This document shows positions 428 through 47,945 of a DNA stretch of 50,561 bases, in pieces; position 1 is the stretch's first letter, and every line of letters starts with the position of its first letter. A program made the translations under genes and the position numbers. A model generated the notes under the pieces. That model was not told where the DNA came from, made no database searches, and saw nothing but the letters and a program-made list of their open reading frames with translations. Origin of the DNA: Sanchytrium tribonematis (Eukaryota); assembly GCA_018985235.1 (NCBI GenBank), contig JADGIG010000014.1, positions 1-50,561 on the forward strand, in the 5' to 3' direction.

Positions 428-1868
428 ATGCAAGTAGCAGCAGAATTTTTAGTTGATCCAGAAAATCTTAACATTTACAATGACAATGTTGTAGTGAATT
501 GTGTAGGAACAGGATGCGGTGCCACAAGTAAAAAGGAATTGTCCTACTTTTTTAAAACTACAAACTTTGGCCAGGACTTTGGTAATTTAGAAAAAGTACA
601 GGAGATTAAACATCTAGAAACTCAGAGTTTGATTTTGAATGAGACTGTGTACAAAATTCCAATTAAAGAGACAGAGCCAAACAGATTTCAATGGTTGCTT
701 ACAGGATTAAGATTGATTAATCCAGGTGAAGAAAAAATAGTTTACCTTGCTATTGTGACGATTATTGAGTTTTCTGATGCAATTGATAAAGTCCGAATTT
801 ATTGGGATCAAGCTTCATTATTGAAGCAGATTGGCTTTTTACATCATATTCAAGCGAAACCTAATACCTTTCAAACAGCTCCAAATTTTCAAACTCCGAT
901 CTTGGGGTCTTCACAAGCTGAGAAACTCATCGAAAATAAGGGGTTTAATACCTTTATCGAGAGTATTGTGGATGCTCAAGGAAAAGGCCAAAATTACAAA
1001 CAGCCGACTTCAATCGGCACCTGTTTAGACGACTCAGACTTGCAGCCTATTTTTGAGACTGGGAAAGCGGCCTCCCATAAATCCAGTATTGGTGGCAATG
1101 AAATGAGGTCTGCCCTGAAGGAATCTGAAGTATCCGAGAACAGATCAATAAGACAACTAAAAGAATCTCCATATAAACAAAAGGATTACATGAAAGCTTA
1201 CTTTGAAGGCACGGATAAGACAGACTGGCTTCCAAAAACCAAAATGATGGCTGAACCCGAAAAGTCCAAAGTTTTTGACGATGAACCAGTACCAGCGTTT
1301 TCCCATAAGCAAATCAATCCAAATAAGAATGCGTCTCATTTTTCCTTGACTGAAAATGAATATGAGAGCTCTCACAATCAAGCAACACTCAACAAAGCTA
1401 ATTCGGGTAGATCTCAAATATTTGATCAAGCGGATGAATTTAAACCAAGTACAAGAGTTTTGAATCCAGGTTGTACCGGGGGTAAGTCACAGATTCAATT
1501 CGGACTGGATGATGGCAGGCCAGGCAAACATGTTAATCCGGAAAAAAATCAATCTCATTTTTCTATAAGTGGTGACTTCTCTGATAAGTCTGCTTCCTTC
1601 AGAGAGCTTGGTTTAGCTGGAATAAAGTCATCCAAGGGTAATGAGTCTCATTTTGCCATATCTGATGCTGGAAGAACTGACCAGCCTGCTCCATCTCATC
1701 ATGGTCGTCGCTTGGTATATTTTATTCATTTAGTACAAGTCAAATCAATCCAGCTTCAGTCTCGGAGATGTCGATCCACTTGCGAAAGATTTCGAGAAAT
1801 TAAAAGTAAGACCCTCTTCGAAAGTTACGAATGTACCAGGAGGGCATTCATCGCTTAGACTTGGCTAA
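428..1868 (+). CDS. NTF2-like domain protein with repetitive low-complexity tail and RPSxxV..PGG motifs; join(428..1714,1734..1868), 473 aa
   Basis: RIYWDQASLLKQIG motif of fungal NTF2-like proteins; repeats KNASHFSL/KNQSHFSI/GNESHFAI; removing the 19-nt intron adds SNQSSFSL and RPSSKVTNVPGGHSSLRLG*. Confidence 0.7.
1715..1733 (+). other. 19-nt spliceosomal intron (gtatattttattcatttag), phase 0
   Basis: GT..AG; splicing gives a C-terminus that repeats the protein's own internal motifs and ends in TAATAAA. Confidence 0.85.
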
Positions 1869-1880
1869 TAAATTTATTTA

Positions 1881-4373
1881 CTACTGCTCGCACAATTCCT
1901 TAATTCTGGAATCTAGTTGGAGTATCAGCGGGTCAGTTGAATGGTATAAACCAGTAGAGAGCAATTCTTGCCTTTCATGACGAAGTCTGTCAATCTCAGG
2001 GTCGCCACTTGACTTTTTGGTGATTCCATTGAGTTCTTTTCGTAAAGATTCTAGCATTTTTAAATCGCTGTTATTTTTCTTTTGCTCTTCTTGAATTAGA
2101 TATCTCCACTTCAATTTCTCTACCATTTTTGAGTCAGTATCCAATTTTGACTGTTTGTCTTGCATGTTTGCAAGTTTAAAATTATCAAATTCAAATTGCA
2201 ATTTAATGCATCTTTCTTTAAAATGCTTTTTGACTTGTTCAGACTTTTGTAGTTTGAACTTAATATCGTTTAATTCACTCTGTAGTTTATGATTAGCGTC
2301 TTGAAGTTGAGTAGTTGTAGATTCAGCATTAATGTGTTTGATATGTATTAGTTTCTCATTAAGTTCATTGTATTTAGATTGAATCATATTATATTGAGAT
2401 TGGGCATCTTTTTGGGATTTCATAAGCTCTTTCACCTTTTCCTTGTATATCAAAAGTTCTTGTTCAGATTGTTTTAATTGCAGACTTTTTTCATTCTTTA
2501 TCTCCTCCATTTTCAAAACAACTTGCTGCTTTTCGAGTTCAAATTTGGCCAATAAAGCTTGTTTTTCCTTACTCATCGATGCCTCTCTTTTTTCAATATT
2601 CTCAGTCTTGAGCCTCAGTTCATCATCTAATGCTCGTAATTCGGTTAATTGTTGTTCAACTTCCTTGTAACTTGAAAAAAGCTTTTCAAGATTCCTTTTT
2701 AATGCTGGCTGATCCATCAACAAATGTTGAACGTCTTGTTTACTCTCATCTGTTTGGACAGCGATATTAGCAACCGGAGACTTGAATTTCAATGACAATT
2801 TTCTGTAAATTTCTTCATCCGTCTGGTGTGGCGTAAAGGTTGTGGCATCTATGGCTTTGAGTTTAGGAGACTCAGGTTGATTTTCAACATCAATACCAAA
2901 TTCTTTTAAGTAGCTAAGGTTATCTATTGGCTCACGCAGATCTTCCTTATGAATTTCAGGTATTTCTTTTTCTTGAAATTCTCCAAAATCTTCTAAAGCT
3001 ATCGTGGCCTTGAGTTGTCCTACATTTTCAATTAATATTGGGATGTCAATTAATTGCAAATCCCCCTGTCCATGAATTTCCGGAGTTCGTTCACTTTTGA
3101 GTACATTTCCTAAATTTATTTGACAGTTTCCCACCAGCGATTTCTTTTTGTATTGATCATGTGAAAAAACTTCAATATTCAATGGTTTTAGCAAAGCTTT
3201 TAAATCTGTAAAATTCATAACCATCTCGTAAGCACAGAATCCATTTTGAATAAAGGATTCAATGTTATTTTGTAGCATCACAGGCGGCCTAGTAGAAAAT
3301 TGATTTTTTGTGCCTAGAACGTAAAGCTCGTAATGAAACTCAACTGGTAATTTAATATTGGAATGTCCAATAATGCTTCTTAGATCGATACTGAGTCGAT
3401 ATTGATGAGCTTCATTTGATAAAGATGTGATTGAAGTAGATTTGGAAACAGGCACAGGAATTTTAGATACAGAGACATCCGAAATATCATTTTTAGTTGG
3501 AGATATAGATTTAGGTTTTCTGTTTTGAGAAATTTCATCCCTGGGGTATCCAATACATTCTAGTTTTATGTCGTAATTATTCAAAGAGATAATTTTCAGT
3601 GTTCCAGATAAAAAATCTATCAAGTGGAAACCTCTTTCCAACACTTTAATCGGTTTTACATTTTCATGTTTTACAACAAAAACCTTGAATTCCGTAGACT
3701 TCCAAAATTCTTGTAATTCACTCAAATGACCCTCAAATACAATTTGATGAATGCTAATTGGCTTATTCTTGTTTAAAATAATATGCTTATTCAATAGTTT
3801 CAATGCGACTGACTCTTTATCATCTTCAAAGTGACAAGATATTGTGGCTGTCATTCTGTAGACTTCTTTACCTTCGCCCACAACAATATTACCTTGATGT
3901 AAATTTAGATAAATGTTAGGACTCCAAATCATTAGGGCTTGGGTAATTAAACGCTCAGGACTCAGCTCATCCATCTCTAAGAATTGATCGGGCTGTTCCG
4001 GCACTAAACCGACTCCAAATCCGATTAAAACTTGTGGTCTAGGGGTATAATTGGTATTCATTAATGTGAACCACTTTTTACTTTCGGGTGGTAATTTGTT
4101 TTCAGCCCGTCGCATGTCAAGTAGAACAAATCCCACCAATTTCTTTGGCTTCTGATAGCAACTTAATTTGCAGTTTAAGCGATTTTGTTTTAAAAAATTA
4201 AATTGCTGCTCATTCAAGTAAAAAACTAATTCCGTGTCAATGGTCATTTCCGAAGTTGATACTAGTACTTCTGATGTTAATTTTTCATTGTTCAGTGTGC
4301 ACTCAAAATATATCGGAGATTTTGATGGTATGATGTGTTTAGCCTTATGCAAAACGATAAAAACCGAAAACAT
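1881..4373 (-). CDS. CEP120: CEP120-like centriolar protein (C2/DUF3668 domains plus C-terminal coiled coil)
   Basis: VGFVLLDMRRA..KWFTL, HQYRLSIDLRSI, TRPPV..NGFCAYE, long coiled coil, and the terminal ERQELLSTGLYHSTDPLILQLDSRI motif. Confidence 0.85.
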   Translation of the reverse strand: MFSVFIVLHKAKHIIPSKSPIYFECTLNNEKLTSEVLVSTSEMTIDTELVFYLNEQQFNFLKQNRLNCKLSCYQKPKKLVGFVLLDMRRAENKLPPESKKWFTLMNTNYTPRPQVLIGFGVGLVPEQPDQFLEMDELSPERLITQALMIWSPNIYLNLHQGNIVVGEGKEVYRMTATISCHFEDDKESVALKLLNKHIILNKNKPISIHQIVFEGHLSELQEFWKSTEFKVFVVKHENVKPIKVLERGFHLIDFLSGTLKIISLNNYDIKLECIGYPRDEISQNRKPKSISPTKNDISDVSVSKIPVPVSKSTSITSLSNEAHQYRLSIDLRSIIGHSNIKLPVEFHYELYVLGTKNQFSTRPPVMLQNNIESFIQNGFCAYEMVMNFTDLKALLKPLNIEVFSHDQYKKKSLVGNCQINLGNVLKSERTPEIHGQGDLQLIDIPILIENVGQLKATIALEDFGEFQEKEIPEIHKEDLREPIDNLSYLKEFGIDVENQPESPKLKAIDATTFTPHQTDEEIYRKLSLKFKSPVANIAVQTDESKQDVQHLLMDQPALKRNLEKLFSSYKEVEQQLTELRALDDELRLKTENIEKREASMSKEKQALLAKFELEKQQVVLKMEEIKNEKSLQLKQSEQELLIYKEKVKELMKSQKDAQSQYNMIQSKYNELNEKLIHIKHINAESTTTQLQDANHKLQSELNDIKFKLQKSEQVKKHFKERCIKLQFEFDNFKLANMQDKQSKLDTDSKMVEKLKWRYLIQEEQKKNNSDLKMLESLRKELNGITKKSSGDPEIDRLRHERQELLSTGLYHSTDPLILQLDSRIKELCEQ

Positions 4374-4418
4374 AAAAAATTGATTTCAAGGAGAAAAGAT
4401 GTTAAAATATACAGTTTA

Positions 4419-5414
4419 CTAAAAGTCGACAAATAAATCATGATAAATATCTTCTTGCACAGAGTGCTTGGTTTTTTCTTCAGGATAATGATCAAAATAA
4501 CTTGAATCACCAGGATGTTGTAGATGCGGAACAATCGGAGGTGTCAACTTCAAATTTTCAACATCCAGCCAATTAATTTGTGCAAAAAACAAATGATTTT
4601 TGATGTCATCAGTGCCATTTCTCAGGTTACCTATCCTATTAGTCAGATCGTGGGTCAAAAGTTGCCGTATTAAATCTTTTGCTGGAGAATGAAATTGAGC
4701 AGGAAAGATTAATTTAGCTCTGAGAATCTTTTCATAGATCCCAAATGGAGATTCATCATAAAAAGGAGGATACCCAACTAAAAATTCATAAATAAGTATA
4801 CCGAGAGCGTACCAATCTACGGCCTTAGTGTGTCCCTTACCTTTTATAATTTCTGGAGCAAGATATTCAGCAGTTCCACACAAGGTATATGTAACATCAC
4901 CTTCTGGTACAAATTTAGCAAATCCAAAGTCACAAAGCTTTAAATTTCCTTTTGAGTTTAATAATAAATTTTCTGGCTTAAGGTCTCGATAGATGCAGCC
5001 ATGATCATGAAGAAACCCCAAGGCGGTTGTAAGTTGAGCAGCATAAAAGACAGATGTGCTTAAGTTGAATCTTCCAGCTTTTCTTAAGTGACTAAATAAT
5101 TCCCCACCAGGAATATATTCCATAATCAGATATAAATTTGCGGATGATTGAAAATGATAGAGTAAATTCACAATTAAAGGATGCTTAAGTTTTTCTAAAA
5201 TCATTTTTTCATTTCTGATATGTTCTACTTGACGCAGTTTGACAATAGTCTTTTTTTGCAACACCTTCAATGCGTAATACTGAAATGGTGACAAGGTTGG
5301 TTTTGCAAATGCCGATGGTTTAATTCTGGTTAAATACACCCTTCCGAATGTACCCGTCCCGAGTGTATTTAAAAGTTCAAAATCGTGGTACGTAAAATCA
5401 TCCTCTTTAGTCAT
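4419..5414 (-). CDS. cAMP-dependent protein kinase catalytic subunit (PKA/PRKX-like)
   Basis: GTGTFGRV, YRDLKPEN, DFGFAK, TLCGTAEYLAPE, AGC tail GDSSYFDHYPEE..FVDF. Confidence 0.92.
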   Translation of the reverse strand: MTKEDDFTYHDFELLNTLGTGTFGRVYLTRIKPSAFAKPTLSPFQYYALKVLQKKTIVKLRQVEHIRNEKMILEKLKHPLIVNLLYHFQSSANLYLIMEYIPGGELFSHLRKAGRFNLSTSVFYAAQLTTALGFLHDHGCIYRDLKPENLLLNSKGNLKLCDFGFAKFVPEGDVTYTLCGTAEYLAPEIIKGKGHTKAVDWYALGILIYEFLVGYPPFYDESPFGIYEKILRAKLIFPAQFHSPAKDLIRQLLTHDLTNRIGNLRNGTDDIKNHLFFAQINWLDVENLKLTPPIVPHLQHPGDSSYFDHYPEEKTKHSVQEDIYHDLFVDF

Positions 5415-5443
5415 TGTTTGACAAGGGGTAAAATCACTAAAAT

Positions 5444-6268: not shown

Positions 6269-6287
6269 AAACCGTTTGAAAAATTAT

Positions 6288-7517: not shown

Positions 7518-7542
7518 GGCCTATAAAAAATATTTTTTTTAC

Positions 7543-8632
7543 TCAATACAAAAAGAATGTCCAGAGACCAGTAAGTAGCGCGTAAATACTCATAAAGTAT
7601 ACTTTTCTTCTCTTTCCACCTCTAGCAACATTCGGATCTTGATTTGCAAACATTATTGGCCGCAAGGCTCTGAGCTAAATAAATTTTGATTACTGTAAAA
7701 AAAGCTAAAGCTACAGATATGTATCCTCTCAAAGTCCATCCCAATATACCTTTGAATCCCAAAAGTGTTATAAAGCCATTGATTACAGCACCAACAAACA
7801 TGTACCCGATAAGAGCAGCCAGATCAAGCCATGATATGTAAGAGCCAACATTATTTAAATAAAGAAATAAAGATAGAACCAATAATTGTAATATATATAC
7901 GAATATGGTGAAAGAAGCGGTAATTCCTAATATGTCTGGATGAAAGGTTGACTTGCTTTTTGAACCATCTGCGATTGCTTTTGAGCCATCTAGACCAGTT
8001 TGTAAACCTACAAGCAATATATATGTTATAAAAGTCATCAAAGGAATATAAAGATCAAATTCACTACCAACTCTATTTCCATTTGGAATTTTGATTTGCT
8101 TGAAGGGAAATAAAATATTGGCTAGCCTGTAGACTACATACTGATGATTAACTCTGAAGTAAACTCTCAAAACATCAATATATCTTGAAGAATTTTTAAA
8201 ATATTGATTTGAAGCGTTCATAGCCATATTGAAAGTACCCAGACCCGCAGCTAAAGTATTACCATTAAAAGGAGATTGTCCAGAATCCTGATTATATTGA
8301 TTTGGATAGGAACTGGGCTGAGGGGCGTAATTTTGTGGATATTGCTGTTGTTGCATATTTGGTGATGCATTTGGATTTGCTTGATAATTGTTGTATTGTG
8401 GCTGATTCGATTCAGGTATAGGCATATTTGGCGGGTAACTAGTATCCGGTTGATAATTATATTGCTGAGGTGGTTGTTGCTGTAAATTTGGGGAATTTTG
8501 ATAGCTAGGAGGATATTGTGCAGGTGGCGGAGATTGGCGAGGCTGCTGCTTTTGAGGTCTTGCCTGTCCAGCATTTGGCCGCTGCTGAGTCTGTGCGTAA
8601 GGCTGTTGGTAATAATTTTGTTCGTTCGACAT
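7543..8632 (-). CDS. YIF1: YIF1-family ER-Golgi membrane protein; join(8632..7694,7674..7543), 356 aa
   Basis: YFRVNHQYV..ILFPF, DLYIPLMTFITYIL, FHPDILG, LDLAALIGY; splicing gives AFFT|LRALR and a final TM helix. Confidence 0.88.
7675..7693 (-). other. 19-nt spliceosomal intron (gtaatcaaaatttatttag), phase 0
   Basis: Removal restores the YIF1 FFxLRxL motif and last transmembrane helix. Confidence 0.85.
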
Positions 8633-8783
8633 CAATAAAAGTTTCAAAAATTATTTTTTATTCTAATATATTGTTCATATCACAATTACAATGTAAAGAT
8701 GTCGCATTTTCAGACGTGTCTATTGTTGCTTAAAAATGATGAAACCAACTTTTAAAGCAAAGTAATGTGAAACAATAATTAAA

Positions 8784-9341: not shown

Positions 9342-9358
9342 GTAAATTCAAAATTTTA

Positions 9359-12300
9359 TTACTGACCTGTTCCTTTTTCCTTGACACTATCAGGATTAAC
9401 ATTGACTCTTTGCTGACTTTCAGTAATATAACTAATGTCGTCCCACTAAATAAATAAAAAAGTACAGGGTGGCGATATAGACCTTGCTTTAATCTCTTTT
9501 GGTCTAAATAATGAGCAGTAAAACCAATTGTTCTTCCTAAAACGAATAAACCATTCAAAGTACCAATTTTAATATATTCTTCTGCTTCTTCCTTTGAAAA
9601 AGCACCACTATGTCTTAGTAAATCAACAAATAAAACACCAATTGCACCATCCACATTTAAAATTAAATTGTCTTTCTTTTGGGTTGTGATTTCCTCAACC
9701 TTTAATGCGTAATCTAAAATAGGAGTGGCTGGAAAATGAGATTTTGCGTAATTTTTGACCAATTCTACTCTCATGTCTGGATTAGTTTTGCTCTTAATTT
9801 TATGTCCGATTCCCAAAATGAGCTTATTTTCTTTTCTCATTTCATCCACAAATTGTCTCGGAGTTTTGTTGCTATCGTATGCTTGGCTAAAAAGTAATGC
9901 AGCACCGTCTAAAGCACCACCAAATCTCTCTCCAATGGTCAACATTCCACTCACAACACTAGATATCAAATCTTTTCCCGCTCTAGCAGTCACAATGGTG
10001 TTATGGGCACCACTGACGGCTGGTCCGTGGTCCGCAGTTAGCATCAAAACCATTTCGATGAAGTGACAAGCATATTCTGGTAATCTTCTCTTAAACCACA
10101 GTAAGCTTACGACTCCTCCAACTCCCAAATTTTGATTAAACACTTGACTTATAGGCATTCCGGCGTATAAAAGTTCCTCTCCTCTATCATCGGTAATGGT
10201 GCTGATAAAATTTGCAGGCTTACGAATGAGTCCCAATTGTTGAGCCCAAGCGTAATCAATCGGAATCTTGGGCACTTCTGGCTCCTTCATAACATGAATG
10301 GTTCCGTTTTCAACAAGTTTGTTGTAAACCTCACTCAATAAATCGGGTAATTCTTCAAAAGTATTTGGAACGGAAATCCCACTTTCTTTCATTTTTTGAT
10401 TTTTATAATTAGCAGTTTCTTCCTTATTATTTGCATGAGCGCCAGCATGACCAAATTGCACATCAGTTGTCAGCAGATCAGCCACAGTACCAATACACCA
10501 ACCAACTATTGGTTTTGTAATAGTTTTAGATTTAACAGCTTCCATGACTCTGTATTCTTCTTTACCACCGACTTCACCCAGAAGAACAATCAGTTTGACA
10601 TGAGGGTCCTGCTCATACCGGAGGATGTGATCCAATAAAGTACTTCCGGGATACCTATCACCTCCGATAGCAATTCCTTCATAAACACCATTTGTGTGAA
10701 GACTGATCATATTGTTCAATTCATTACTCATACCTCCACTCTTGCTCACATAAGCAACACTACCAGGACGATAGAGCTTACTGCTTACAATATTATCCAT
10801 CATACCACCAGTATTTCCAATTTTGAAACATCCTGGTTTTATGCCTCCAACGGTTGCAGGCCCGATAATTAAAACATTTTTAGCTTTTGCCACATGTAGC
10901 AAGTGTCTCGTTCTTCTTTCAGGTACACCTTCAGCGATAATACAAATGGTTTTGATCTGATTGAAGTTCATAATATCCATTGTCGAAGAAAAGACACTTC
11001 TGCAGCTGGTAAAATTAATGATTGAATTAACCTCTGGGTGTGCCTCCAAGGCCTTTAACAAAGAATCATAAACTGGGATCATAATGTCTTGAGTACCCCA
11101 GTAATACTTCATATTTGAATCACCACCAAAGGGATAAATCATAGCAGCCACACTTGGGGTTTGTCGTTTACACATGTAATCAAAATCCAACATACCTTGA
11201 ACAGCTTTTGGTTGCATACCCCAAATAAAGCATCTGGTGGAATTAGTGAATGTAGGCGAAAAAGAAGCGGAAGGAGGCGGTGTTGTGACTCGCTCGATAG
11301 AAGAGTTTGTCGGACCTCTTGGGGTAGAGGTTGGTTTGGCCTTTGCCTGTTCAGTCCATTCTTCTTTCACATCTCCTTTTAATGCCATAGGTACTATGCT
11401 CGTTACATGGGTTTCGGGACCGTAAACATGCATATCTAAATTTAATTCGCTTGCGACTCTTTTGATATTTTGTAGTCCTTCTTGATAATTTGGTCCTGCA
11501 CGTCTTACAAAAATTCTGGTTTTATGTTGTTGTAACTGAATTTGGAATTCTTGCAAAGCTTTAATAATACCCTTGAAGGTGCTGGCGACATTTGTGAAAT
11601 TTGCGATACCACCACCAATCAAAAGAATTTTTCCATCTTTATGTTCATACTTTGTCATGAGCTGTAAAATAGTTTTAGCGTATAAATAAGTTTGTTCAGT
11701 AGATGGAGCACCAGAGTATTCTCCGTAATTTGCTAACTCATTAGCAAATCCATAATTGGCAATAGCATCTGCATATGCAACTGATGCACCTCCACCAGCA
11801 ACCATAGTCCAAACTTGCCCATGTGGGTTCAAAATTGTTAATTTTAGAGAAGCGCCGGTTTTAGCGTCTAGTTCTTGAATAAAAGCTTCTTCTTTACTCA
11901 ATACTCGTCCAAAAGGAGCAGGGTACTCAATTGAAGCAGATAAAGCTTGCTGAATTTTGTCACCCGTCTCGAACTCTGCGGTTTGGTCAAGTTTTGCTGC
12001 CAAATCCATCATAGAAATTGTATAAGGCTTGACGTTTCCACCGTTAGTGTCTAAAATGGCTTTGAGTTGCGGATTATTACTAATTTCTGATTGCTCTAGC
12101 AATACTAAAGGATTAATTTCCAAATAAGTGAAATGCAAATCAACATAAACTGCATAAAGACGGGAAATGAATTCAGTAAGAACCACCTTGTGTGCTGAAG
12201 GGACATTGGCAAGTAGTTTCGAAATATCTGTTGCCTTGAGAGTTTCCAATGCAAAAACATCTACTTTAATTGCTTTTTCTTCAACATCCCCGATGTCAAC

Positions 12301-12744
12301 ACCGCCTTCGTGATGAAAATAAATTGTGTCGCCTTGTCGATCACTAGAAATACAAATGTAATATTCAAGTTTATGAGGAATAAATGGTTCAATAATAAAA
12401 TGAGTGAGCGGGCCAGTCAGACTGCCAATTTGAGTCGTCGGGTGCCCTCGAATCCAATCTAAACATTCATCGACTTTCTTATTTAAACCAATTAGGCCGA
12501 GTTTACCTCTACGTTTAATCAACATATCTGGTTTAACAACATACTGCAAATGGATAGGTAATTGTTGCGATAATTGATTATTTGTAACTTGTGATAAATT
12601 TCCAGTCAAGAATCGAAAGGAAACTTGTTCTTGATCCTGAATGTGATCAATCTTAAAATCATTATTAAGTTGAATATGACTTCGATGTAAATGATAAGAA
12701 ATAAGTGATTTGCCGTCAATTTCTCTGATTGCTTTTGCAGACAT
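9359..12744 (-). CDS. ACLY: ATP citrate lyase, single-chain form; join(12744..9466,9445..9359), 1121 aa
   Basis: MSAKAIRE, KPDMLIKRRGKLGL, QFGHAGA phospho-His, ADHGPAVSGAHN; splicing restores GLYRHP|WDDISY. Confidence 0.96.
9446..9465 (-). other. 20-nt spliceosomal intron (gtacttttttatttatttag), phase 0
   Basis: Removal restores the conserved RHPWDDISY and removes the apparent overlap with the convergent gene. Confidence 0.95.
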
Positions 12745-17963: not shown

Positions 17964-19461
17964 TTACGCTAAAAATTTGGTGGTGCTGTCGTTGCTGTCT
18001 GTATCACTTGACTCCTCATGAAAATTTGCCACATCTCTACGACCTCTTTCCAAATCGACAAAATGGTATAAAATTGGGATAGCAATAAGAAGCATTACTA
18101 TGAGAGCAAAGAACGAATTTCTGAAATCTCCACTTAAATCTCTTATCAATGCAGTCAAAAGGGGACCAATCCAAGCAGATCCCTTATCTGTAATTTCGTA
18201 CAAGCTGAAAAATTCAGCTTCTTTGCCTTTTGGAATTAATTCGGATAATATCGCTCTAGAGAGAGCTTGCCATGCACCTTTATAAATAAAAATTACCAAG
18301 AGTAAAGCCAAAAATTATACAAACTGGATAAATTTCCCATACTTGATGCAAGAAAAACGTCTTCGACCATTTTCCTAAGACAGCGTATATGGGGACTAGC
18401 AAAACTATAGATAGAACAATCAATAGAGTCTTTTTTGAGCTCCAATTCATGAACTTTTGCAGCCGTAACCAAAATACATTGCCAATACCTGCAATGAATG
18501 GAATTAAAATAGCATTAATTAATAAATGTTTGTCGGGCACACCCAATTCGCTTCGTGCAAATAAGATGGCGACAGTTGTCATAGTTTGTGCAGCATCAGC
18601 ATATAATGCAAAAGCAAGCAAAAAATAAAACGTAGTCGGAATTTTCCTACAATTTTTAACACTAATGTACAATCTTTCCCAAGAGAATGCAACATATACA
18701 TACGTTACATAAATTTTTCTTGTCAATTTTCTCACTAAGCTGAGATCCGCGGTACTACCACCAATTTTTCGCTGCATAGTTGGAGGTAAGGGCTCACCAG
18801 GATATGATTTCAAATTTACAAACGCTAAAGATCCGAATCCTAACCACCAAATTCCGGTTAAAATTAAGCTTAATTGCTTTCCATAGATTGGGCCTGTAAA
18901 CATATTAATTGTGGCAGCAATTATTAAACACAAAACACCGCCAACATAACCCCAGGCAAATCCATAGGATGAGAATTGAGAAGAGATATGATCCTCATCT
19001 AGTAAAGAAACTGGAGAACTAATTTCATCTAAGTTGGTTTCTCGGGTTTGAATTTCAGCTATGTGCTCCCTTACAATAAACGGCAGGTAAGCATTGTAAA
19101 CAACCAGACTAACACCGTATGCTACATTGGATAAAACAATAAAAACTGCGATAAATTGTATATTCCTTGATAATCCGATTAAAATACAGGACAGACCACC
19201 AATCCATGTTGTAAACACCAAAATGGCCTTCTTATTACCACCATAGTCTGCTAAACCTCCACTACTGATACAAAAAAGTGCCTGCATAAACACCGAGAAC
19301 GAGTTAATGTACATGGCAGTTGAATCATCGCTCAAAGATTCAACAATTAAAGGAAGAAAGAAAGTCATTGCCACGGTAGCATAAACTGTGTTAGCGAAGT
19401 CGTATAAATACCAGGCATAGACACTTCTCTTTGATTGAAGCGGTCCATTATGTGATTCCAT
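17964..19461 (-). CDS. Atg22/UMF1-like MFS transporter; join(19461..18297,18277..17964), 492 aa
   Basis: AWYLYDFAN, GGLADYG, YNAYLP, GYVGG, QALSRAILSELIPKGKEAEFFSLYEITDKGSAWIGP. Confidence 0.9.
18278..18296 (-). other. 19-nt spliceosomal intron (gtaatttttatttataaag), phase 1
   Basis: Joins two ORFs of the same family in frame (FGFTLG-AWQALSR); contains an in-frame stop if retained. Confidence 0.92.
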
Positions 19462-23536: not shown

Positions 23537-23962
23537 TCATTTTTTTCTTTCCTTATTCAAAATCTTTAAATCGTCTCTGTGCTTTTTCAGTCTTTTCTCG
23601 ATTGTTTCTTTAGATTCAACTTTTGGTTGGAGATTTTCCCAATAAGCAATTCTTTCCAAAACTTGATCAATACTAACTTTCTCAGGCACATCACTTATTC
23701 CTGCTGCAATTTGATGCATTCTGCTATTTATATGTTCAAGATAAGCATTGGAATCTGAAAAAACCAAATCACAAACTTTACAAACATAACCTGCTTGTTG
23801 AGAAGTATGAATTAGCCTTTTTCCAACTGCATTTTGTAAATTCAAATTTAGTGTAGTAGAAACGCGCTCATTTTTTGGGGTGTATTTCAAGTCAGGCTTC
23901 TTTTTCTTCGCAATTGGAAGTGTATTAACATCGAATTCCCTTCGTTTCATGAACTCATACAT
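23537..23962 (-). CDS. ZMAT2: Snu23/ZMAT2 spliceosomal matrin-type zinc-finger protein (start at 23962 or 23950)
   Basis: GYVCKVCDLVFSDSNAYLEHINSRMHQ..G..EKVSIDQVLERI. Confidence 0.85.
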   Translation of the reverse strand: MYEFMKRREFDVNTLPIAKKKKPDLKYTPKNERVSTTLNLNLQNAVGKRLIHTSQQAGYVCKVCDLVFSDSNAYLEHINSRMHQIAAGISDVPEKVSIDQVLERIAYWENLQPKVESKETIEKRLKKHRDDLKILNKERKK

Positions 23963-24132: not shown

Positions 24133-25577
24133 TTACAAGTAATCATTTGAAAACTCTAACTCAGGAAATGAGGCATTTATATCCAGAACTTCTTCCTTTA
24201 TAGGTGAGTCGGTAGATTTTTTCCTCTTGTCCAGAATCGGCGAATCAGCAGATAATTCCTCATTAGAAGTATTTATAAGCGGTGGTATTGGTATAGCGAA
24301 GTAGTGGTTCTCGGAGTACTCCCCGTCAAATTTTTTCATAGTGACGGGTGGAAAAATTAAATCTACAAGATCACCTACATCGCCGTAGGAAGACTTAAAA
24401 TAGCTTTGTTCTAATTTCAAGGTTCCCAGGTGATCTACTACGAATATACGACTGTTAGGAATATCCACGCTTCTGTAAGATATTGCGTCCTATATTAGAT
24501 AAGTAATACAGTGTTTCTATTCCCAAATCCAGCGTAAAAAGGATTTCTAATTTTAAATACTCTCTTGATGTCTTTTAGGCAAGCCATTTTAAAAATTTCT
24601 GGACGCCTTTGTATTATTTCCCTTCGGAAAGCTGCATAAAGACGATCCGGAGATAGAAAAACGGGTCCTTCCGGTAATTTGTACGGTCCTTGCTCCACCT
24701 TCTCTAAATAATTTCTAGTGTAAGGAGCTTGGCCAATGGCTCTGGAAGTGAGATATAACATTTTGTACCCATTTTTATAAATTTTATGATATAGTCCACA
24801 AATACTAGCATGTGTCCAATCCTTTCCAACAAAAGCAAATAAGTGACCCAGAGCATCACTTTTTGTGATTGTTCCATCTATATCACTTATAACAACATTT
24901 ACGTTATGTTCCCATAAATAAATGTTGGCTGTGCACTTTTCTTCTCCATTGATGTAATAAATTAAATCATTTTTGCCTTTTTTCAATTCCAAGGCTTTCA
25001 ATTGTTCGGAAGACATCCTTAGGCTTTTAGGAGAATAACTCATCATAGAAACAGATTGAATTGGCATTAGTTCTGGAGAGCCGGAATTGGATCTTGAAAA
25101 TGTATTTGATGTGGACGGTTCTCGACTGAGTGGATTTTTCAAAGATATTCTATCCTCTTCACTTTTGTACCCTTGCTCATGACGGGTGGATCTAAAATCG
25201 TCCTCTGGTGGAGACTGATAACCTTCTGATCTTGTATCTAAATTTAAATCAATACTTCCTTCGTCAGAAGACATGGCATCTTGGTCAACCTCATCTAAAA
25301 CAAAATAACCTTCACCAACATCACCTACGCGCATCTGAGTGTCAATAATTTTTCCATTCACTTTTAAGTGTACAATTTGGTCTTGAGTTCTCAGTATAGA
25401 CAATTTTCCGAATCTCACGTGAAAAGGCGAACAACTTAAAGATCCGTCCAGGTGTTCGATAACAAGTATATCAATAGCACCGCTTAAAGTTGATGGATTT
25501 ATCTCGGAATATACATCTTTTATCCATGATACAGCACTGCTTGCATTTTTGTAAGCGTAAGAAGAGATTGATTGCAT
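24133..25577 (-). CDS. PAH1: Lipin/Pah1 phosphatidate phosphatase; join(25577..24510,24489..24133), 474 aa
   Basis: INPSTLSGAID, CSPFHVRFGK, DIDGTITKSD, LTSRAIGQA; splicing restores GFGNRNT|DAISYRSV. Confidence 0.95.
24490..24509 (-). other. 20-nt spliceosomal intron (gtattacttatctaatatag), phase 0
   Basis: Removal restores the lipin GNRxTD..SY motif; contains CTAAT with A at -6; in-frame stop if retained. Confidence 0.95.
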
Positions 25578-25729: not shown

Positions 25730-26953
25730 ATGAATGAGCCAGAGATATCAATGTCAATTGAGGAGACAAATAAGCTTCGTGCACAGCTTGGTCTGAAGCC
25801 ACTAAAGGAGGAACAGAATCGCAAAGAAGAGCCTACCATACTTGAAAAATCTAATGATCGTATTGAAAACAATTTTTCTACTGAGGATTGGCTTTCAAAA
25901 ATGGCAAAAACATCCAAAAAAGTAGATAATAATTTTGAACTCAATGATCAGTTGGATTACAAGATCGGCCATGATTTCGAAGACTTAAAAACAGGAGAAA
26001 ATATTGTAACCTTGAAAGATTCAGATGAGATGATTTTAGAGGAACAGGGCATAAAAGATCTTGATCATATAAAAAAACAAAAAGATGTTTTTCAAAATTA
26101 TACTGGAACTAGAGACTCTGAAAAAAGTCTGTTGTATCAATATGAAAATCAAACTGGGTTCAGAATCGGTGACCCGGTGAAACGAAAACGCGAAGAACTT
26201 CTTGGAGAAACTGTTTCTACTCAAATTGAAAAGACTGAGCAGTCTGAATTTCGTCCAGTCAAGAAATTTAAAAAGGCAAATATCAGGACAATTGAAAAGG
26301 ATATTGGTGAACAAATAATGAATGAAATTGAAATTAAAAACATAAAGCCAAACATCAATCAAGTAATAGCATCAGTGAGGCCAAATATTGAATTAGATCT
26401 TAATCGACTTAAGGCAAGCAATGATATCACTGTCGAAGGAGAAGAATTTAATGAAGCTACTATTATCACATCTATCGTAAAACCTGAAGAGAAGGAAGAA
26501 AAATGTGAATTTACGGATGCAACAATGGAAGAAGCCGCCGAAGAAGAAATGGATATTGATGACGCACCAAGCGTTGACAATGATTATCTGAACAATATAC
26601 CAAACACAAAATATTTTGATTTGCCAAGTTTTTCTGTTGCACCTTTTCTGCCTCAGATAGTTAAAGTTTTTGATGAAGCACAATTTGATTCAGAAATGAA
26701 GCATATTGATGCAGAGATTGATATTTTAAAGATTAAAAGGAAAAACAGCAAGCGCAAGAAAGACATGAATCCTATTGACAAGAAAATTGATCAACTGGAG
26801 AAACAAAGAGCTTCATTGCTAATTCAGAAAATGAAACATTACAAACCAAATATTGATATCCAATATGTAGATAAAAATAGAGTTCTAACACCTAAGGAAG
26901 CTTTCAAGAAGATTAAATTCTATGGTCAAAAGGTCAAAGCTGCTAATAAATAA
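25730..26953 (+). CDS. SART1: SART1/Snu66 tri-snRNP protein (short, 407 aa)
   Basis: HIND motif SMSIEETNKLRAQLGLKPL, IGHD, VTLKDS, YKPNIDIQYVD..LTPKEAFK. Confidence 0.88.
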   Translation: MNEPEISMSIEETNKLRAQLGLKPLKEEQNRKEEPTILEKSNDRIENNFSTEDWLSKMAKTSKKVDNNFELNDQLDYKIGHDFEDLKTGENIVTLKDSDEMILEEQGIKDLDHIKKQKDVFQNYTGTRDSEKSLLYQYENQTGFRIGDPVKRKREELLGETVSTQIEKTEQSEFRPVKKFKKANIRTIEKDIGEQIMNEIEIKNIKPNINQVIASVRPNIELDLNRLKASNDITVEGEEFNEATIITSIVKPEEKEEKCEFTDATMEEAAEEEMDIDDAPSVDNDYLNNIPNTKYFDLPSFSVAPFLPQIVKVFDEAQFDSEMKHIDAEIDILKIKRKNSKRKKDMNPIDKKIDQLEKQRASLLIQKMKHYKPNIDIQYVDKNRVLTPKEAFKKIKFYGQKVKAANK

Positions 26954-33400: not shown

Positions 33401-33935
33401 ATGCCAGTTTATCATTCTCAATTCGATGGAACAAAATTTCAAAGTATTGGAGGAATGGCTTTACTTCCATTTCAATCTAAATTTAAAGGACCAGCTGCAC
33501 CTACTACGGAAGAAGATATTGTTGAGGAATCGGTCATTTCTTTTAGAATTAATTGCTTTTTTAAGCATTTCGACATTAAAAGTTCGGCTGATAGAACTTT
33601 GATTTATGGTATTCTATTTGTTTCCGAATGTTTGAGTAAATTGAAGCCAAATATGTCTCAACAAGAAGCTTACAAGACTTTGCAAAGTTTTGCTGTCAGT
33701 GGATTTGCACTTCCTGGCGATGCTGGTATTTGTAATTAATTCAGGATTCCCTTTAAATGCATTATATCCCACACCTGCTAATAGAGGTGAATACGATCAA
33801 TTAAAAGCGTATATTTTACAATTTAGACAGGAACTTGCGCAAAGATTTAGCGAGAGGGCATTCGTCAACAATCAGCCTTCCAAATGGTGGATGGCATTTC
33901 AGAAAAAGAAGTTTTTAAATAAAACTCTATCTTGA
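33401..33935 (+). CDS. ARPC3: Arp2/3 complex subunit 3; join(33401..33725,33745..33935), 171 aa
   Basis: MPVYHS, FKGPA, ADRTLIY, spliced FALPGDAGFPLNALY, PSKWWMAFQKKKFLNK. Confidence 0.96.
33726..33744 (+). other. 19-nt spliceosomal intron (gtatttgtaattaattcag), phase 1
   Basis: Removal restores the conserved PGDAGFPLN; in-frame TAA if retained. Confidence 0.96.
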
Positions 33936-41900: not shown

Positions 41901-42971
41901 CAGAAAAATCCAAATCTAAATGCACTAGTGCACCACTTTCTAAATGACGAGAAATTTACCGAGTACATCATGGTTGGTATTAAGTTGCAACAGAATTTAT
42001 TAGACAAGGTCAAAATTAAAATCAATATCCAAGATCTATTGTCTAAAAATTTAGTAGCCTCATCAGAGCCAGCGAAGCAACTTATCAAGTCAGTTCAAGG
42101 TGCAATTGTGTCTGATGGCATCGCTGCTAGCATCGAGTTAGATTTGCCAATTAGTAGTAATATTAACTCCATTACTGCAGTTATTCATAAAGGTGGAGAT
42201 TCTATTTTCAATATTGCCGTAGATGCACAATTACCATCAGTCAATGCCCATTTAAAACCAATTTTTCCTGCAATGCAATTTCATATGAGTCAAATTTACA
42301 GAAGAATGAAACTGGGTGTTAATTTAGTGTCGGATATTTCAATAGGTGGTATTTTATTATCGAATGAATATAAGCTGAATATCCTAGAAGATATTTTTGT
42401 AGATAAGTTACCAGATGTAAGTTATGTAGAGGGTATACTGCCATGTCGAATGCACACGCTGAACCCTATAAAATTAATTAAAGATCCTGGAATTGGTACT
42501 GATGTTTTCTTTAAAGCAAGCACTTTACCATTTCCAGTCGATCTCGATTTGGGAACTCTCTACTTCGATGTTTTAGACTACAATGTATATAATGATACGC
42601 TGAAGTATGAAGTTACTATGGATGATGAAAGAGCGCATATTAACGAGCTGGTTTATCCAGTCAATCCAGCTGCTATCGGAAACTATAGCAAAGTTGATTA
42701 TACTCGAAATTGTATTCATAATGACCATATCAAATATTACAATGTAAATACTGGTCTGTTGTTCTTTATTAGATGGGTGAATAATCCTCTTAAAGCTGTT
42801 GATGGATTGTTTAAATTAGGACGCAAAAAATTATTACGAAATTTTAAAATTACAAGGAATGGCGAAGAAATGAAATGGCTCGGTGAAATGATGTTAAAAA
42901 CAAATGTATATGTTCACGTCAAACTCGACCATGTACCTGATTTTGAAAAGAATCCAAGGCCAGATCGATAA
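35919..42971 (+). CDS. 2350-aa membrane-anchored repetitive beta-rich protein (possibly Tag1/DUF3712/LEA_2-like repeats)
   Basis: Uninterrupted 7-kb ORF; N-terminal hydrophobic helix; alternating I/L/V pattern with recurring LPxLxLP linkers. Family assignment is inference. Confidence 0.7.
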   Translation: MLLIISAIVLILLSGYGVAAPMIIRDILGNGDIFVYPDHVSLDLRPQETNVYFKGEFFITRNNIDAYIHETFYRIYYRNQVALGLTLSDMQTYTDKRTNLDFHTQLLVFNASLIDQLLREAIKGENADVIMQGYMGVSVFKVPMYSKVFVERYLLPKETNLRQQLQDFMDGTLPPGSLDPTLKQYPKPVIPPLNTPKINGLTLYRKSNQIGINIKFEWKNDFIELHVAEIRIPLLLYNVNFGGLYLENLRLTNGLVKGNVNIGLYLLTGDEIKKAFQHAFKMLIKELTIQVGVVGPLRFVAEESVVWIANATKSLNASLTIDIPRVTERFGISLPSAPKAMLDLKHMSLEIKIRTVKKSIDLGLELHLPSKFPKLPKVESLIGVALKLGYIKDLIQIEVGKLHIVNQFVQLGTRINFFDQPRELRALVDRFMGKKSDQTIHAHDMEFFPSCPTCKQFDNIDFSIDPPEINFSQYVKFGKSILKNTNLGLKIYSLSVIQKERSFFIDVDFQLDLLLPIDAFIGYLAVTLQINHDDFLTLSIENLRWSKTNRHKLSLEITFHKSSQLSLLIPHLLDYLNNKNSIPDIITISSIKIGESKQMFSSLFSEIDIDIKISELLESISLPQLDLNLDNVLEPTFLTLIARDTIKLGLKSIFNNPLDFDLHVHLDPIKASIDNSIFFNIAELNLSHNLELEAEISFKNAKAIIQPILEDFLNHKFNRMISLSLGSITFLENAKVDINIPELSLSSGLINLSHMNLNNPISNFKPDNIDINHHGNSIKAALGVDLTINVPIVVDISSIQVGVRLQKNKFLKLSTGAIKIHQGLNEINLPLELQFNECTVCETEVNQLTQNLLSGNLIETIIGIQDLHIGEIEDLESISVDLFVSQNIHLPKLPAIQLPNISPKNLAISVHDKTINAKGSLSLDLNWIKAHFQRISLYVTLNNQDLVRILIHHLDVNRGVNFEISLEFFDASKEVLQLYNYLTVGYNEINIGVHTISLDQIYILRSINAAQPVGRFVEPAIIHLDEVLNKPLPALPLESVDIVSLDQWIVLDILAKIPIDVKIDASLALQVALNDHSLLNLKLSLSGHNMIRIGAKIMLFDIAENMKTIGSIISNVLSSRDLSGSISIKQIVVGNINSFERISVDIPLSIIKVPSLTLPAIKMSGLSVKNVEKDVEVKLHLPIKLPKLPFKIDVLLVQLHIFDSAFVTLSLNPIFKNGVDLTILAHFEKYDNPEINTMINSFLETKNLDLQVGISKIALKTNKGLYKISNKIPIDIHQKMTLPQLSLPTLELKSLNIHTDENKLIAQIENPLPVHLDYFQISLGHNQNLVTISAVLSSKIDIFLEFNNAGADEMKILLEKFDFVQIYGMKIGTSRDFHQFNLDIHFPLHILPKFDFPIPSLPSIKISPENVQLETIQDHGLMAKLRIQAALPIALNLNSQNIKVKLGLGNPMILAEIDSINITGDEVFVSLKLFMDNQYRSQIAEEISKLLHKEQSHLFVSELKIDSIMLFSSSRFEVPIHLPIDESKLGSSLNDLTSQHAETLSNITINHVKAVVNPDNSLTTSLSINFPFDFDIKVAINYLQVGLRINEQSLLLAEIQPIKIQKAMELDVKLKLNSWAYSKIEKVGIEYLKIGYSDEDYISLFEDVKLDVNIDLKNIKLPSLPNIDLSIKADSANLNIDQNISGLAKLKIPNIFLSIPFIRVSLGALMPSIFIQLSVITSELIEVNFLIDGHADDNELLAMRQLVDKFLNGNVDVFLDELQFGHSRDSFVSLKIGQQIKTKAPKLPAIKLPSLVVDPNNVKASISEKITLKTSINLDVPVTFNVKNIELEVFINERLANIHIDAIKADGVAEISVIVEPHNVQESTQLQLNEILNNIIQKTPLNADVYIDRIILGNLNNLELIHLKLPNLDLPQITLPKIEPILNLDKANINLIGDNQLFLTAKAGVSVGFSIDAQLDKLGLSVGILDNPFLEARISGDVKDVADVEVNLSLQKNPNLNALVHHFLNDEKFTEYIMVGIKLQQNLLDKVKIKINIQDLLSKNLVASSEPAKQLIKSVQGAIVSDGIAASIELDLPISSNINSITAVIHKGGDSIFNIAVDAQLPSVNAHLKPIFPAMQFHMSQIYRRMKLGVNLVSDISIGGILLSNEYKLNILEDIFVDKLPDVSYVEGILPCRMHTLNPIKLIKDPGIGTDVFFKASTLPFPVDLDLGTLYFDVLDYNVYNDTLKYEVTMDDERAHINELVYPVNPAAIGNYSKVDYTRNCIHNDHIKYYNVNTGLLFFIRWVNNPLKAVDGLFKLGRKKLLRNFKITRNGEEMKWLGEMMLKTNVYVHVKLDHVPDFEKNPRPDR

Positions 42972-43001
42972 ATAATAAATCCATTGTGCAATTTTTGAAA
43001 C

Positions 43002-43706: not shown

Positions 43707-43709
43707 ATT

Positions 43710-44630: not shown

Positions 44631-44673
44631 GGAGAAATAAATTCAAACACAATTTATCTATAAATATATTTAC

Positions 44674-45801: not shown

Positions 45802-46036
45802 TTTGAAATTTAAAGATATTTCTACTATTTATAGAATATAAGAGTTGCATGTGATGACTATGTCAGTGGAATTCTACTTCAGGATCCATAGGAAATTCAA
45901 CTTTAAAATCTCAATCCATAAATCGTAAGGACGAGGATCCATAGATGAATACCCCGCGTCTTATGTCCCTGAAATCGTGCTGGCTAAAAAAGGTCGAGAG
46001 GTGAGTTGATAATGGATTGTTGAGACACATGATTTA

Positions 46037-47945
46037 TTATGACGACTTGTCAAGGTATGGAAGATATTTGCCAAATTTTAGATTAGGAGTATCAAGGTCA
46101 ATTGCTTCTAGATTTTGATTGCAGCGAGTGGTAAAGGTCTCTATCAAGTCATTTGCAACGCCGCTTGCGAATTTATCCCAGTTTTCATATACCTTTAATC
46201 TAGACGATATATTTTTGCAATTATTGAGAGCTTCAATAATTTCTTTCTTTAAATCACTTTTGGGAATACTTTTTACCGATTCTACCTTTTTTTGTAAATG
46301 ATTGTATTTCAAAGATGGAGGAGAAGCAGCTATACCAAGTACTCTATATTGCTGTTGGAATCTATGAGCCATAAAATCATCAGTATAGATGTCCAACTGA
46401 AACGGTACAGAGAGATTAATATTGCAATAAAGTAGCAATTTTGTAAAAGCTCCATAATATATTTGATGAAATTGTACAAAAAGACCTTCGAATGAGTGCA
46501 GCTCTTGGACTTCTAGAGAGACTTTTGGCAGATCAGAGATACTTCCACAAAAATATCGAATATGATCAGATTGGAAATCTTTGAGAGATTTCTTTTTCTC
46601 AAGTGTTTTGAGAAAAAATCTACTAACATACTCCATTTGAACAGAAAAAGCCAAAATATCATGCTTTTCTATCAATTCAAGATAATATCCTAAGTTTAAC
46701 CATTGAAAACAAGCAAAGTTGGACATAACATCAACCGATATTTTTAAGTATGGTGTATTATGCTTCTAAGTAAGTATTAAGTACATCACGCAGCATTTTG
46801 CTAAGTAAATCATCATATTGATCAAATGGAATTTTTTTGATGGACTCAATATATCCATTTAACATTCGTCTATATCTTCCCGAATTATGAGCAGAGCTAT
46901 GGATTAAATCCCCAAATACAGAATTAAGACCTGGTAAAAGGTTGGATAACAAATCATGAAGATGCATCGGAGGCCATGGGATTTCTGCACTACCCAATTT
47001 CTGAATTTCCTCTTTTGAGTGAGTGGCTATCGTATGACTTATTTCTCTCAACTGAAGTAGAAAAAAATCGTTTATCGGATGTCCCTGAATCTTTTTGTCT
47101 CTCATCAAAACATGGTTTCTTGTGCTAAATAAAAAGTCTAAAGGAATCTGGCTTTTCTCAATTCCATCGATATCAATGTCGTATGTATTGAATAACTTCA
47201 CCCCCACTTCAGAAAAGTAGCAGGATCCTATAGAATAAAAGAAATTTCTCCAATATAAATTAAGGCCAAACTCTGCTGGCAAAGAGTAGCTTGAATGAAT
47301 ATCATTATAAAACTTGTACATAAAATTGTAAATAGGCTCAATTCTATTATTAGGAATTAAATGAAATGGTCTGGGTGGAGAAAGTAGCATTTCTGGCAAT
47401 TCGTTTAGATTTACATCGAACGGGATTTCTTTAGATTTACATTTAGTGCTAGTGATTTTGGAAGCCCACAAGAAATGATGAGCTGAAGATGGAAAATTAT
47501 CAGGCTTGATTTTTAATTGAAATTGTGGAGCCGATTCTCCTTTCATCATCTGTAAAATATCCAGAGCTAGATTATCCAGCTTCAAATGATCGTTATAAGC
47601 ATTTCCGTGCTTACATATAATGCTGCAATCATGACTCACGATCTCCTCCTCTTCATACAAACCATATTTTCTTAATTCTTGAACAACTGCTGTAAGGTGT
47701 TGGTGCGGATAGTAGCAAGTCGTCAATGACTGACCGCAAAGAAAGTGGAGAAAAAGACAGATTCCATTATCTTGATTCAGTATAGGCGCCTCATGGTCTG
47801 CCAATGCTGTAAAATAATCCATTTTAAAATCCATCATTTCGATAGCTGCAATGCTGTCTAGCAACTTAATTGTATTTGAAATGGAAAACGTTTCGAGAGA
47901 GTCACAATACGAATTAAACTCTTCCGTACATTCTATCCAATTCAT
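46037..47945 (-). CDS. NAA35: NatC auxiliary subunit Mak10/NAA35-like; join(47945..46785,46765..46037), 629 aa
   Basis: MNWIECTEEF..LLDSIAAIEMMDFKMD, GQSL, LYEEEE, HNSGRYRR, LGYYLEL, HRF. Confidence 0.75.
46766..46784 (-). other. 19-nt spliceosomal intron (gtacttaatacttacttag), phase 0
   Basis: Joins the 395-aa and 229-aa ORFs in frame (LRD|KHNTPY...MSNF) and fits the same consensus. Confidence 0.88.

What the first reader, a model, noticed from the sequence alone, without database searches (positions are those of the whole stretch)
1715..46784. A system of ultra-small 19-20 nt spliceosomal introns in a fungus-like nuclear genome
Seen in sequence: seven GT-AG introns at 1715-1733(+,19), 7675-7693(-,19), 9446-9465(-,20), 18278-18296(-,19), 24490-24509(-,20), 33726-33744(+,19) and 46766-46784(-,19). 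Removing each restores the frame, in several cases inside conserved motifs (ACLY RHP|WDDISY, lipin GNRNT|DAISY, ARPC3 PGDAG|FPLN). I found no longer intron. Established knowledge: introns this small are known mainly from heterotrich ciliates (15-16 nt) and chlorarachniophyte nucleomorphs (about 18-21 nt), and typical fungal introns are much longer. Inference: an independent origin of miniature, length-constrained splicing in a zoosporic opisthokont. Gene predictors with default minimum intron sizes would likely miss these. I cannot verify whether this has been reported for this lineage.
Basis: partly seen in the sequence, partly recalled or inferred. Interest (0 to 1): 0.93.

Follow-up and report, generated by a model that had tools for sequence, protein, structure and literature searches.

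The report
Ultra-short introns in sanchytrid fungi
Seven genes of an alga-parasitising sanchytrid fungus are interrupted by 19-20-base segments that are very likely spliceosomal introns; they would be shorter than any fungal intron I found in print, and the public protein sets for this group read through them and cut the proteins short.

Summary
All seven GT-AG segments are at the stated coordinates. ACLY groups the window with Amoeboradix gromovi (81% identity), i.e. Sanchytriomycota. In four genes the best-scoring deletion against homologues is 19 or 20 nt long. Relatives break at the same codons in ACLY, lipin and ARPC3; their read-through tails back-translate to 19-22-nt introns, which argues strongly against assembly error. 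An intronless relative spans junction 7 without a gap. No RNA run was listed, so splicing is inferred; no whole genome was held, so the length distribution rests on 7 + 6 introns. Equally short introns are known from ciliates, Mikrocytos, nucleomorphs and myxozoans; microsporidia start at 22 nt. Four literature searches found no report for sanchytrids. The scan earlier noted 26-30-nt Rozella and 40-41-nt Neolecta introns, none in sanchytrids. New variant of a known kind.

The parts
1715..1733 (+). 19-nt intron, phase 0, in an unnamed gene 428-1868 (NTF2/SnoaL-like N-terminus is a weak lead only); putative branch A at 1728; 0.91 of the CDS
   Evidence: weakest case, no homologue test
7675..7693 (-). 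19-nt intron, phase 0, in YIF1 (7543-8632); putative branch A at 7680; 0.88 of the CDS
   Evidence: no homologue test
9446..9465 (-). 20-nt intron, phase 0, in ATP-citrate lyase (9359-12744), YRHP|WDDISY; putative branch A at 9451; 0.98 of the CDS; same break in A. gromovi and ENA relatives
18278..18296 (-). 19-nt intron, phase 1, in an ATG22-family transporter (17964-19461); in-frame stop inside; putative branch A at 18283; 0.79 of the CDS
24490..24509 (-). 20-nt intron, phase 0, in lipin/PAH1 (24133-25577), GNRNT|DAISY; in-frame stop inside; putative branch A at 24495; 0.75 of the CDS; same break in 3 relatives
33726..33744 (+). 19-nt intron, phase 1, in ARPC3 (33401-33935), PGDAG|FPLN; in-frame stop inside; putative branch A at 33739; 0.63 of the CDS; same break in A. 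gromovi and ENA relatives
46766..46784 (-). 19-nt intron, phase 0, in a divergent Mak10/NAA35-like gene (46037-47945); putative branch A at 46771; 0.62 of the CDS; absent in relative P0253, which aligns without a gap across the junction
25730..26953 (+). SART1/Snu66-like gene (HIND motif): a spliceosomal protein encoded in the window
   Evidence: PF19252 E 2.9e-13; the family's role in the tri-snRNP is recalled
23537..23962 (-). C2H2 zinc-finger protein, probably Snu23/ZMAT2-like
   Evidence: zf-met E 4.4e-06; the name is recalled, not from a call

Best explanation
These are very likely genuine major-spliceosome (U2-type) introns of a sanchytrid fungus, shrunk to 19-20 nt here and by inference to about 19-22 nt across the lineage, and predicted to be removed by measuring from a branch point at a fixed position. 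Shown: 5' GTA (7 of 7), YTNAY at -9..-5 with A at -6 (7 of 7), A at -10 (6 of 7), only three bases between that A and the AG, 91% A+T inside, and positions shared with relatives. Inferred: U6 (and perhaps U1) reads GUA at the 5' end; U2 pairs with the W-A-Y-U-N-A-Y element and bulges the -6 A; a lariat ring of 14-15 nt forms; with no room for a polypyrimidine tract, the 3' AG is chosen by distance from the branch. About 6 nt of 5' site, a 2-nt spacer, 7 nt of branch site and NNAG add up to 19, which would set the floor against a deletion bias in a compacted parasite genome. The genome appears intron-poor (7 introns in 46 kb of CDS, 0.15 per kb; roughly 1,500 genome-wide if the window is typical).
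For: Frame restoration and gap-free profiles. Best deletion is 19 or 20 nt in 4 of 4 genes tested. ACLY: 113 of 120 proteins with YRHP continue WDD; 5 continue with V (GTN): the window, A. gromovi and three ENA proteins (two of them near-identical); 2 are point variants. The window, A. gromovi and two ENA rows form one clade (SH-aLRT 97, quick tree). Lipin: 115 of 119 continue with D; the 4 exceptions are the window and its three closest hits, all V. Back-translation: 8 of 13 relatives' tails reach exon 2 and each allows one length, which after collapsing two near-duplicates gives 19, 19, 22, 19, 20, 19; shuffled tails fit in 3-32 of 400; YTNAY is allowed in 8 of 8 and A at -6 is forced in 4 of 8. 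YTNAY at one offset in all seven: 0 of 200,000 shuffles. Intronless relative P0253 is collinear over junction 7. A. gromovi annotation lists PRP8, BRR2, SF3B1, a U2AF subunit, CWC25 and ISY1 (PMC8371127 supplement file 4). Stentor's branch A is also sixth from the 3' end: position 10 of 15 and 11 of 16 (PMC9505925).
Against: No spliced RNA or lariat was seen. No snRNA lies in the window and no genome was held, so U2 pairing is untested. The branch motif was chosen after looking at the seven sequences. The exon-2 residue sets in the back-translation were set by hand from homologues, and 5 of 13 tails stop too early to inform. The window's own ACLY control returned the true 20 but also a spurious 53, and 92 of 400 of its shuffles fit some length. 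Introns 1 and 2 lack homologue tests. SLU7, PRP18, MSL5 and SNP1 were not found by name in the supplement, but that file was cut. Relatives' introns are detectable here only when they break the frame, which biases the sample.
Confidence: 0.88

Rival explanations
1. The seven are real introns, but the window is not representative: the genome also holds many longer or in-frame introns, so there is no strict length limit.
For: Only 7 introns seen directly; A. gromovi ARPC3 is already 22 nt; an untested 30-nt in-frame consensus match sits in the importin gene; in-frame introns are hard to see without homologues.
Against: 7 of 7 here and 6 of 6 inferred in relatives fall in 19-22 nt; 94.7% coding density and a median gap of 33 nt leave little room; two 18-nt look-alikes proved to be coding, in lipin and in ARPC3 exon 2.
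Confidence: 0.08
2. The segments stay in the mRNA and the frame is restored by ribosomal frameshifting or transcriptional slippage.
For: The inserts are T/A-rich, with short homopolymer runs; no RNA shows splicing.
Against: 3 of 7 hold an in-frame stop; homologues lack the 6-7 extra residues; both +1 and +2 shifts would be needed; GT, AG and a fixed YTNAY are shared across unrelated genes and species.
Confidence: 0.02
3. They are assembly or amplification insertions, or frameshifts of pseudogenes.
For: The only run that holds the DNA (X1) may be the window's source, so its identical contig over 7000-25700 is not independent.
Against: A. gromovi and ENA metagenome proteins break at the same codons in three genes with different insert sequences; downstream exons are open and conserved.
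Confidence: 0.01

Closest known systems
Stentor coeruleus / heterotrich 15-16-nt introns (PMC9505925, passages read)
   Same: GUA start, AG end, A/U-rich, branch A sixth from the 3' end, very narrow length range.
   Different: Ciliate; 4 nt shorter, with a lariat of about 10 nt against 14-15 here; no strong branch consensus, whereas these keep YTNAY; 8,806 introns against an intron-poor genome.
Chlorarachniophyte nucleomorph introns, 18-21 nt (PMC6009652, passages read)
   Same: Almost the same length range, GT-AG, AU-rich.
   Different: Relic endosymbiont nucleus, 3.1 introns per gene, no discernible branch adenosine; here a main nucleus with about 0.2 per gene and a fixed branch motif.
Mikrocytos mackini 16-17-nt introns (PMC10245619, section 7 read)
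   Same: Parasite with few, conserved, length-constrained introns (224 in 179 genes).
   Different: Rhizarian, shorter, only 17-19 spliceosomal proteins, none in metabolic or transporter genes; here ACLY, lipin and an ATG22 transporter carry them.
Encephalitozoon cuniculi introns, 22-76 nt (PMC3629993 and PMC2483917, passages read)
   Same: Holomycotan parasite, intron-poor, strict branch motif (TAAYTT) near the 3' end.
   Different: Longer and variable; only 37 introns; strong GTAAGT-type donor; microsporidian introns are often 5'-located in ribosomal protein genes (PMC10245619), whereas these are 3'-located.
Myxobolid myxozoan (median 22-27 nt) and Dicyema introns (PMC13644364, main text read)
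   Same: Opisthokont parasites, donor reduced to GTa, no room for a polypyrimidine tract.
   Different: Animals; weak A stretch whose distance from AG grows with length, rather than a fixed -6 A; longer medians.
Fixed branch-to-AG spacing in Yarrowia lipolytica, Trichomonas vaginalis and Giardia (PMC2483917, passages read)
   Same: Intron-poor genomes with the branch site anchored to the AG; Y. lipolytica has 2 nt between the motif and AG, the same spacing as here.
   Different: Near-invariant ACTAAC motif and, in Yarrowia, long introns; here the motif is degenerate and the whole intron is minimal.

Membership tests
U2-type spliceosomal intron | GT...AG ends whose removal restores the conserved protein | tested here: met
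   7 of 7 ends and frames; homologue test met in 4 of 4 genes tried, profile continuity in ATG22
U2-type spliceosomal intron | Branch-site motif with adenosine near the 3' end | tested here: met
   YTNAY with A at -6 in 7 of 7; 0 of 200,000 shuffles; compatible in 8 of 8 relatives' tails. Use as branch point not shown.
U2-type spliceosomal intron | Removed from mRNA via a lariat | not testable with these tools
   No RNA holder listed
U2-type spliceosomal intron | Major spliceosome encoded (Prp8, Brr2, SF3b, U2/U6 snRNA) | tested here: inconclusive
   Proteins listed for A. gromovi in PMC8371127 supplement 4; SART1-like gene in the window; snRNAs not testable beyond the window
U12-type (minor) intron | RTATCCTTT 5' site and CCTTAAC branch site (consensus recalled) | tested here: not met
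   None of the 7 sequences has these motifs (listing)
Ultra-short, length-constrained intron systems (heterotrichs, Mikrocytos, nucleomorphs) | Nearly all introns of the genome within a range of a few bases under about 22 nt | tested here: inconclusive
   7 of 7 in the window, 6 of 6 inferred in relatives; genome-wide count not possible
Sanchytriomycota | Groups with Amoeboradix gromovi on a long stem, compact genome of about 35% G+C | tested here: met
   One-gene quick tree SH-aLRT 97; A. gromovi is the best named hit in 3 of 3 searches (names); window G+C 35.1% against 34.6-36.3% (PMC8371127)

The most novel reading that the evidence does not exclude
The whole phylum Sanchytriomycota splices only 19-22-nt introns, the shortest in Fungi, with a spliceosome that converged on the Stentor geometry (branch A fixed at -6) while keeping a recognisable U2 branch site. 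It kept or gained introns mainly in the 3' part of genes, the reverse of other intron-poor fungi. About a fifth of its published proteins are then truncated, so some inferred gene losses may be artefacts.
Probability: 0.55. Interest if true: 0.85.

Novelty: new variant of a known kind. Interest (0 to 1): 0.74.

Why it matters
It adds an independent origin of near-minimal introns inside true Fungi, below the microsporidian 22 nt, in a lineage whose sister group is intron-rich (Blastocladiella emersonii: 19,375 introns in 10,031 genes, PMC9730499). Because the branch motif is still readable, the parts add up (5' site + spacer + branch site + NNAG = 19), which gives a testable account of what sets the minimum intron size; such sequences could be tried in yeast or Cryptococcus splicing assays. 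The 3' position bias (7 of 7 beyond 0.62 of the CDS) runs against reverse-transcriptase-mediated 3' loss reported across fungi (PMC8476143). In practice, the two sanchytrid proteomes were called by TransDecoder on genomic contigs without intron models (PMC8371127 methods), and all three A. gromovi proteins I retrieved are read-through truncations, so phylogenomic and gene-loss work on this phylum needs re-annotation.

Tried and rejected
No whole genome was held. No RNA holder listed; this is no evidence either way. A metagenome pattern scan for an ACLY intron of 14-74 nt gave 5 loci, all false. Lipin scans of prokaryote genomes and viral contigs found nothing. Rfam: 0 matches in the window. 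PDB searches with the two Mak10-like exons: 0 hits and one chance hit. Atlas search of gene 1: best 0.85, a lead only. Relaxed motif scans give many hits on both strands and do not reveal extra introns. Two 18-nt look-alikes (25238-25255, 33809-33826) were rejected as conserved coding sequence. The SART1-like ORF end was checked by eye and needs no intron. The ACLY tree is the quick version; three outgroup rows were cut by a fallback rule and have long branches, so the root and the sister relation to Blastocladiomycota are not resolved by it and are taken from PMC8371127. The Stentor genome paper PMC5659724 was not held. Literature searches returned nothing relevant.

Full report
Observation. 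All seven segments are present as described: five of 19 nt and two of 20 nt, each GTA...AG, each restoring the frame when removed. The window is a compact eukaryotic stretch of 35.1% G+C; 34 genes cover 94.7% of 1-48907 with a median gap of 33 nt. Pfam names most genes and shows profiles running on across the lipin, ARPC3 and ATG22 junctions. Against full-length homologues the stated splice pair was the best frame-keeping GT/GC-AG pair in 4 of 4 genes, and the best deletion of any kind was also 19 or 20 nt long; the GT-AG placement tied for best in three and was second by one base in Mak10. Introns 1 and 2 rest on frame, motif and weak codon-usage support only.

Organism. The closest named ACLY, ARPC3 and lipin relatives are from Amoeboradix gromovi (81%, 83%, 84% over the searched regions; names). 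In a quick maximum-likelihood tree of 38 of the 122 ACLY proteins then held, the window, A. gromovi and two ENA proteins form a clade on a long stem (SH-aLRT 97). PMC8371127 places sanchytrids as sister to Blastocladiomycota, with genomes of 10.5-11.2 Mb and 34.6-36.3% G+C. The window is therefore a sanchytrid other than A. gromovi; Sanchytrium tribonematis, the other species in that paper, is the obvious candidate (inference, not tested).

Shared with relatives. Public ORF calls for this group ignore introns, so their tails read into the insert. For ACLY, 113 of 120 proteins with YRHP continue WDD; five continue with V, the residue a GT donor gives: the window, A. gromovi and three ENA proteins, two of them near-identical. 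For lipin, 115 of 119 continue with D and the four exceptions are the window and its three best hits. For ARPC3, the window and four relatives break after PGDAG while two distant homologues run through. I asked which intron length lets each tail be read as GT...AG followed by the conserved exon 2. Of 13 relatives' tails, 8 reach exon 2 and each allows one length; collapsing two near-duplicates gives 19, 19, 22, 19, 20, 19 nt. Shuffled tails fit in 3-32 of 400. Five tails stop too early to inform. The window's ACLY control gave the true 20 plus a spurious 53 with a one-base overlap, and 92 of its 400 shuffles fit; the exon-2 residue sets were set by hand. For the Mak10-like gene a relative on a 19.5-kb contig (P0253) has no break and aligns without a gap across the junction (184 of 387 and 82 of 242 identities), so this intron has been gained or lost within the group. 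Different inserts at the same codons in several organisms argue strongly against an assembly artefact.

Anatomy. Aligned on the 3' end, all seven have Y at -9, T at -8, A at -6 and Y at -5; six have A at -10. YTNAY at one offset in all seven arose in 0 of 200,000 shuffles, and an all-A column in 0.15%; the motif was picked after inspection, but it matches the general WCTRAYN branch consensus (PMC2483917). In relatives it is allowed in 8 of 8 informative tails and the -6 A is forced in 4. A strict scan of both strands found 12 matches: the seven, three antisense matches, a 40-nt match sharing the YIF1 acceptor, and an untested in-frame 30-nt match. All seven introns lie at 0.62-0.98 of the coding length (chance that all fall in the 3' half 0.008; that the mean is this high 0.0025). 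The strict scan found no consensus intron near gene starts, though weaker 5' introns could be missed. Density is 0.15 per kb, against 1.30 in Allomyces and 2.53 in Rozella (PMC8476143).

Mechanism (inferred). A major spliceosome defines the intron as a unit: GUA at the 5' end, U2 paired to W-A-Y-U-N-A-Y with the -6 A bulged, a 14-15-nt lariat ring, and the AG chosen three bases further on without a polypyrimidine tract. The parts add up to 19 nt, which would be the floor against deletion pressure in a compacted parasite genome, as argued for Mikrocytos (PMC10245619). The A. gromovi annotation lists PRP8, BRR2, SF3B1, a U2AF subunit, CWC25 and ISY1; SLU7, PRP18, MSL5 and SNP1 were not found by name in a file that was cut, which shows nothing. 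The 3' bias is unexplained; one idea is that late introns are tolerated because retention leaves most of the protein. Frameshifting is unlikely: three inserts hold in-frame stops and homologues lack the extra residues. No RNA was available, so splicing is not shown.

Comparison and novelty. Introns this short are known from Stentor (15-16 nt, branch A also sixth from the end), Mikrocytos (16-17), chlorarachniophyte nucleomorphs (18-21, no visible branch A), myxobolids and Dicyema (median 22-27) and Encephalitozoon (22-76). The kind is known. What I did not find is a report for sanchytrids or a fungal set below 22 nt. Searches for Sanchytrium, sanchytrid, Amoeboradix and Sanchytriomycota with 'intron' listed 8, 2, 9 and 1 papers; in the three I opened, 'intron' occurs only in a reference title (PMC8371127; PMC10459994) or for Blastocladiella (PMC9730499); the rest were judged from the listing. 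Broader searches added none. Subscription papers are not searched, and two large supplements of PMC8371127 (MOESM1, MOESM4) could not be read and may bear on this. That paper called ORFs with TransDecoder on contigs, which explains why the introns would have gone unseen.

What I read. PMC8371127: abstract, passages, section 6, supplement list and two searches in file 4 (cut; only the A. gromovi sheet appeared). PMC10245619: passages and section 7. PMC13644364: parts 1-2 of 3 (main text). PMC9505925, PMC3629993, PMC6009652, PMC2483917, PMC8476143, PMC9730499, PMC10459994: passages. The U12 consensus, the names Snu23 and CEP120, and roles of spliceosomal proteins are recalled. Earlier scan notes on Rozella and Neolecta were used as unchecked context only; none exist for this genome.

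Verdict. Observation confirmed; real introns very likely (0.88); new variant of a known kind; interest 0.74.

Noticed in passing
window 35919-42971 (+): A 2,350-residue ORF with no Pfam match at E 0.1 and an apparent hydrophobic N-terminus.
   Followed up: no
window 49747-49905 (-), region about 49700-50500: Decayed retroelement-like remnant: RT_RNaseH_2 match, E 2.3e-4, below the curated cut-off; neighbouring frames are short and broken.
   Followed up: partly
window 25730-26953 (+): SART1/Snu66-like protein of 407 aa with a HIND motif but no match to the main SART-1 profile: possibly a shortened spliceosomal protein.
   Followed up: partly
window 15620-15649 (+): 30-nt in-frame match to the intron consensus inside an importin-like ORF; may be an in-frame intron or chance.
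   Followed up: no
window 46037-47945 (-): Mak10/NAA35-like gene so divergent that only 3 of 1.84 billion representatives match, one being itself; Pfam Mak10 E 8.9e-4, below cut-off.
   Followed up: partly
P0132 and P0251: ENA lipin and ARPC3 relatives both list 2 contigs with the longest at 17,737 bases: possibly the same contig, which would mean the window's gene linkage is conserved.
   Followed up: no
window 1881-7517, 14529-14813: Possible centriole or cilium genes (C2-domain coiled-coil protein, trichohyalin-plectin-homology protein, dynein light chain) in a lineage with a reduced flagellum.
   Followed up: no
window 1-48907: Intergenic gaps as short as 3-4 nt and three apparent overlaps of 9-69 nt counted from the first ATG.
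   Followed up: partly
P0002-P0013: Environmental proteins of about 1,020 aa that outscore fungal ACLYs against the C-terminal half but lack the ATP-grasp and citrate-binding Pfam domains; possibly duplicated alpha-type domains.
   Followed up: no
P0127: A more distant ARPC3 relative (67%) breaks at the same place with tail G-Y-S-stop, which would imply a GTT rather than GTA donor.
   Followed up: no
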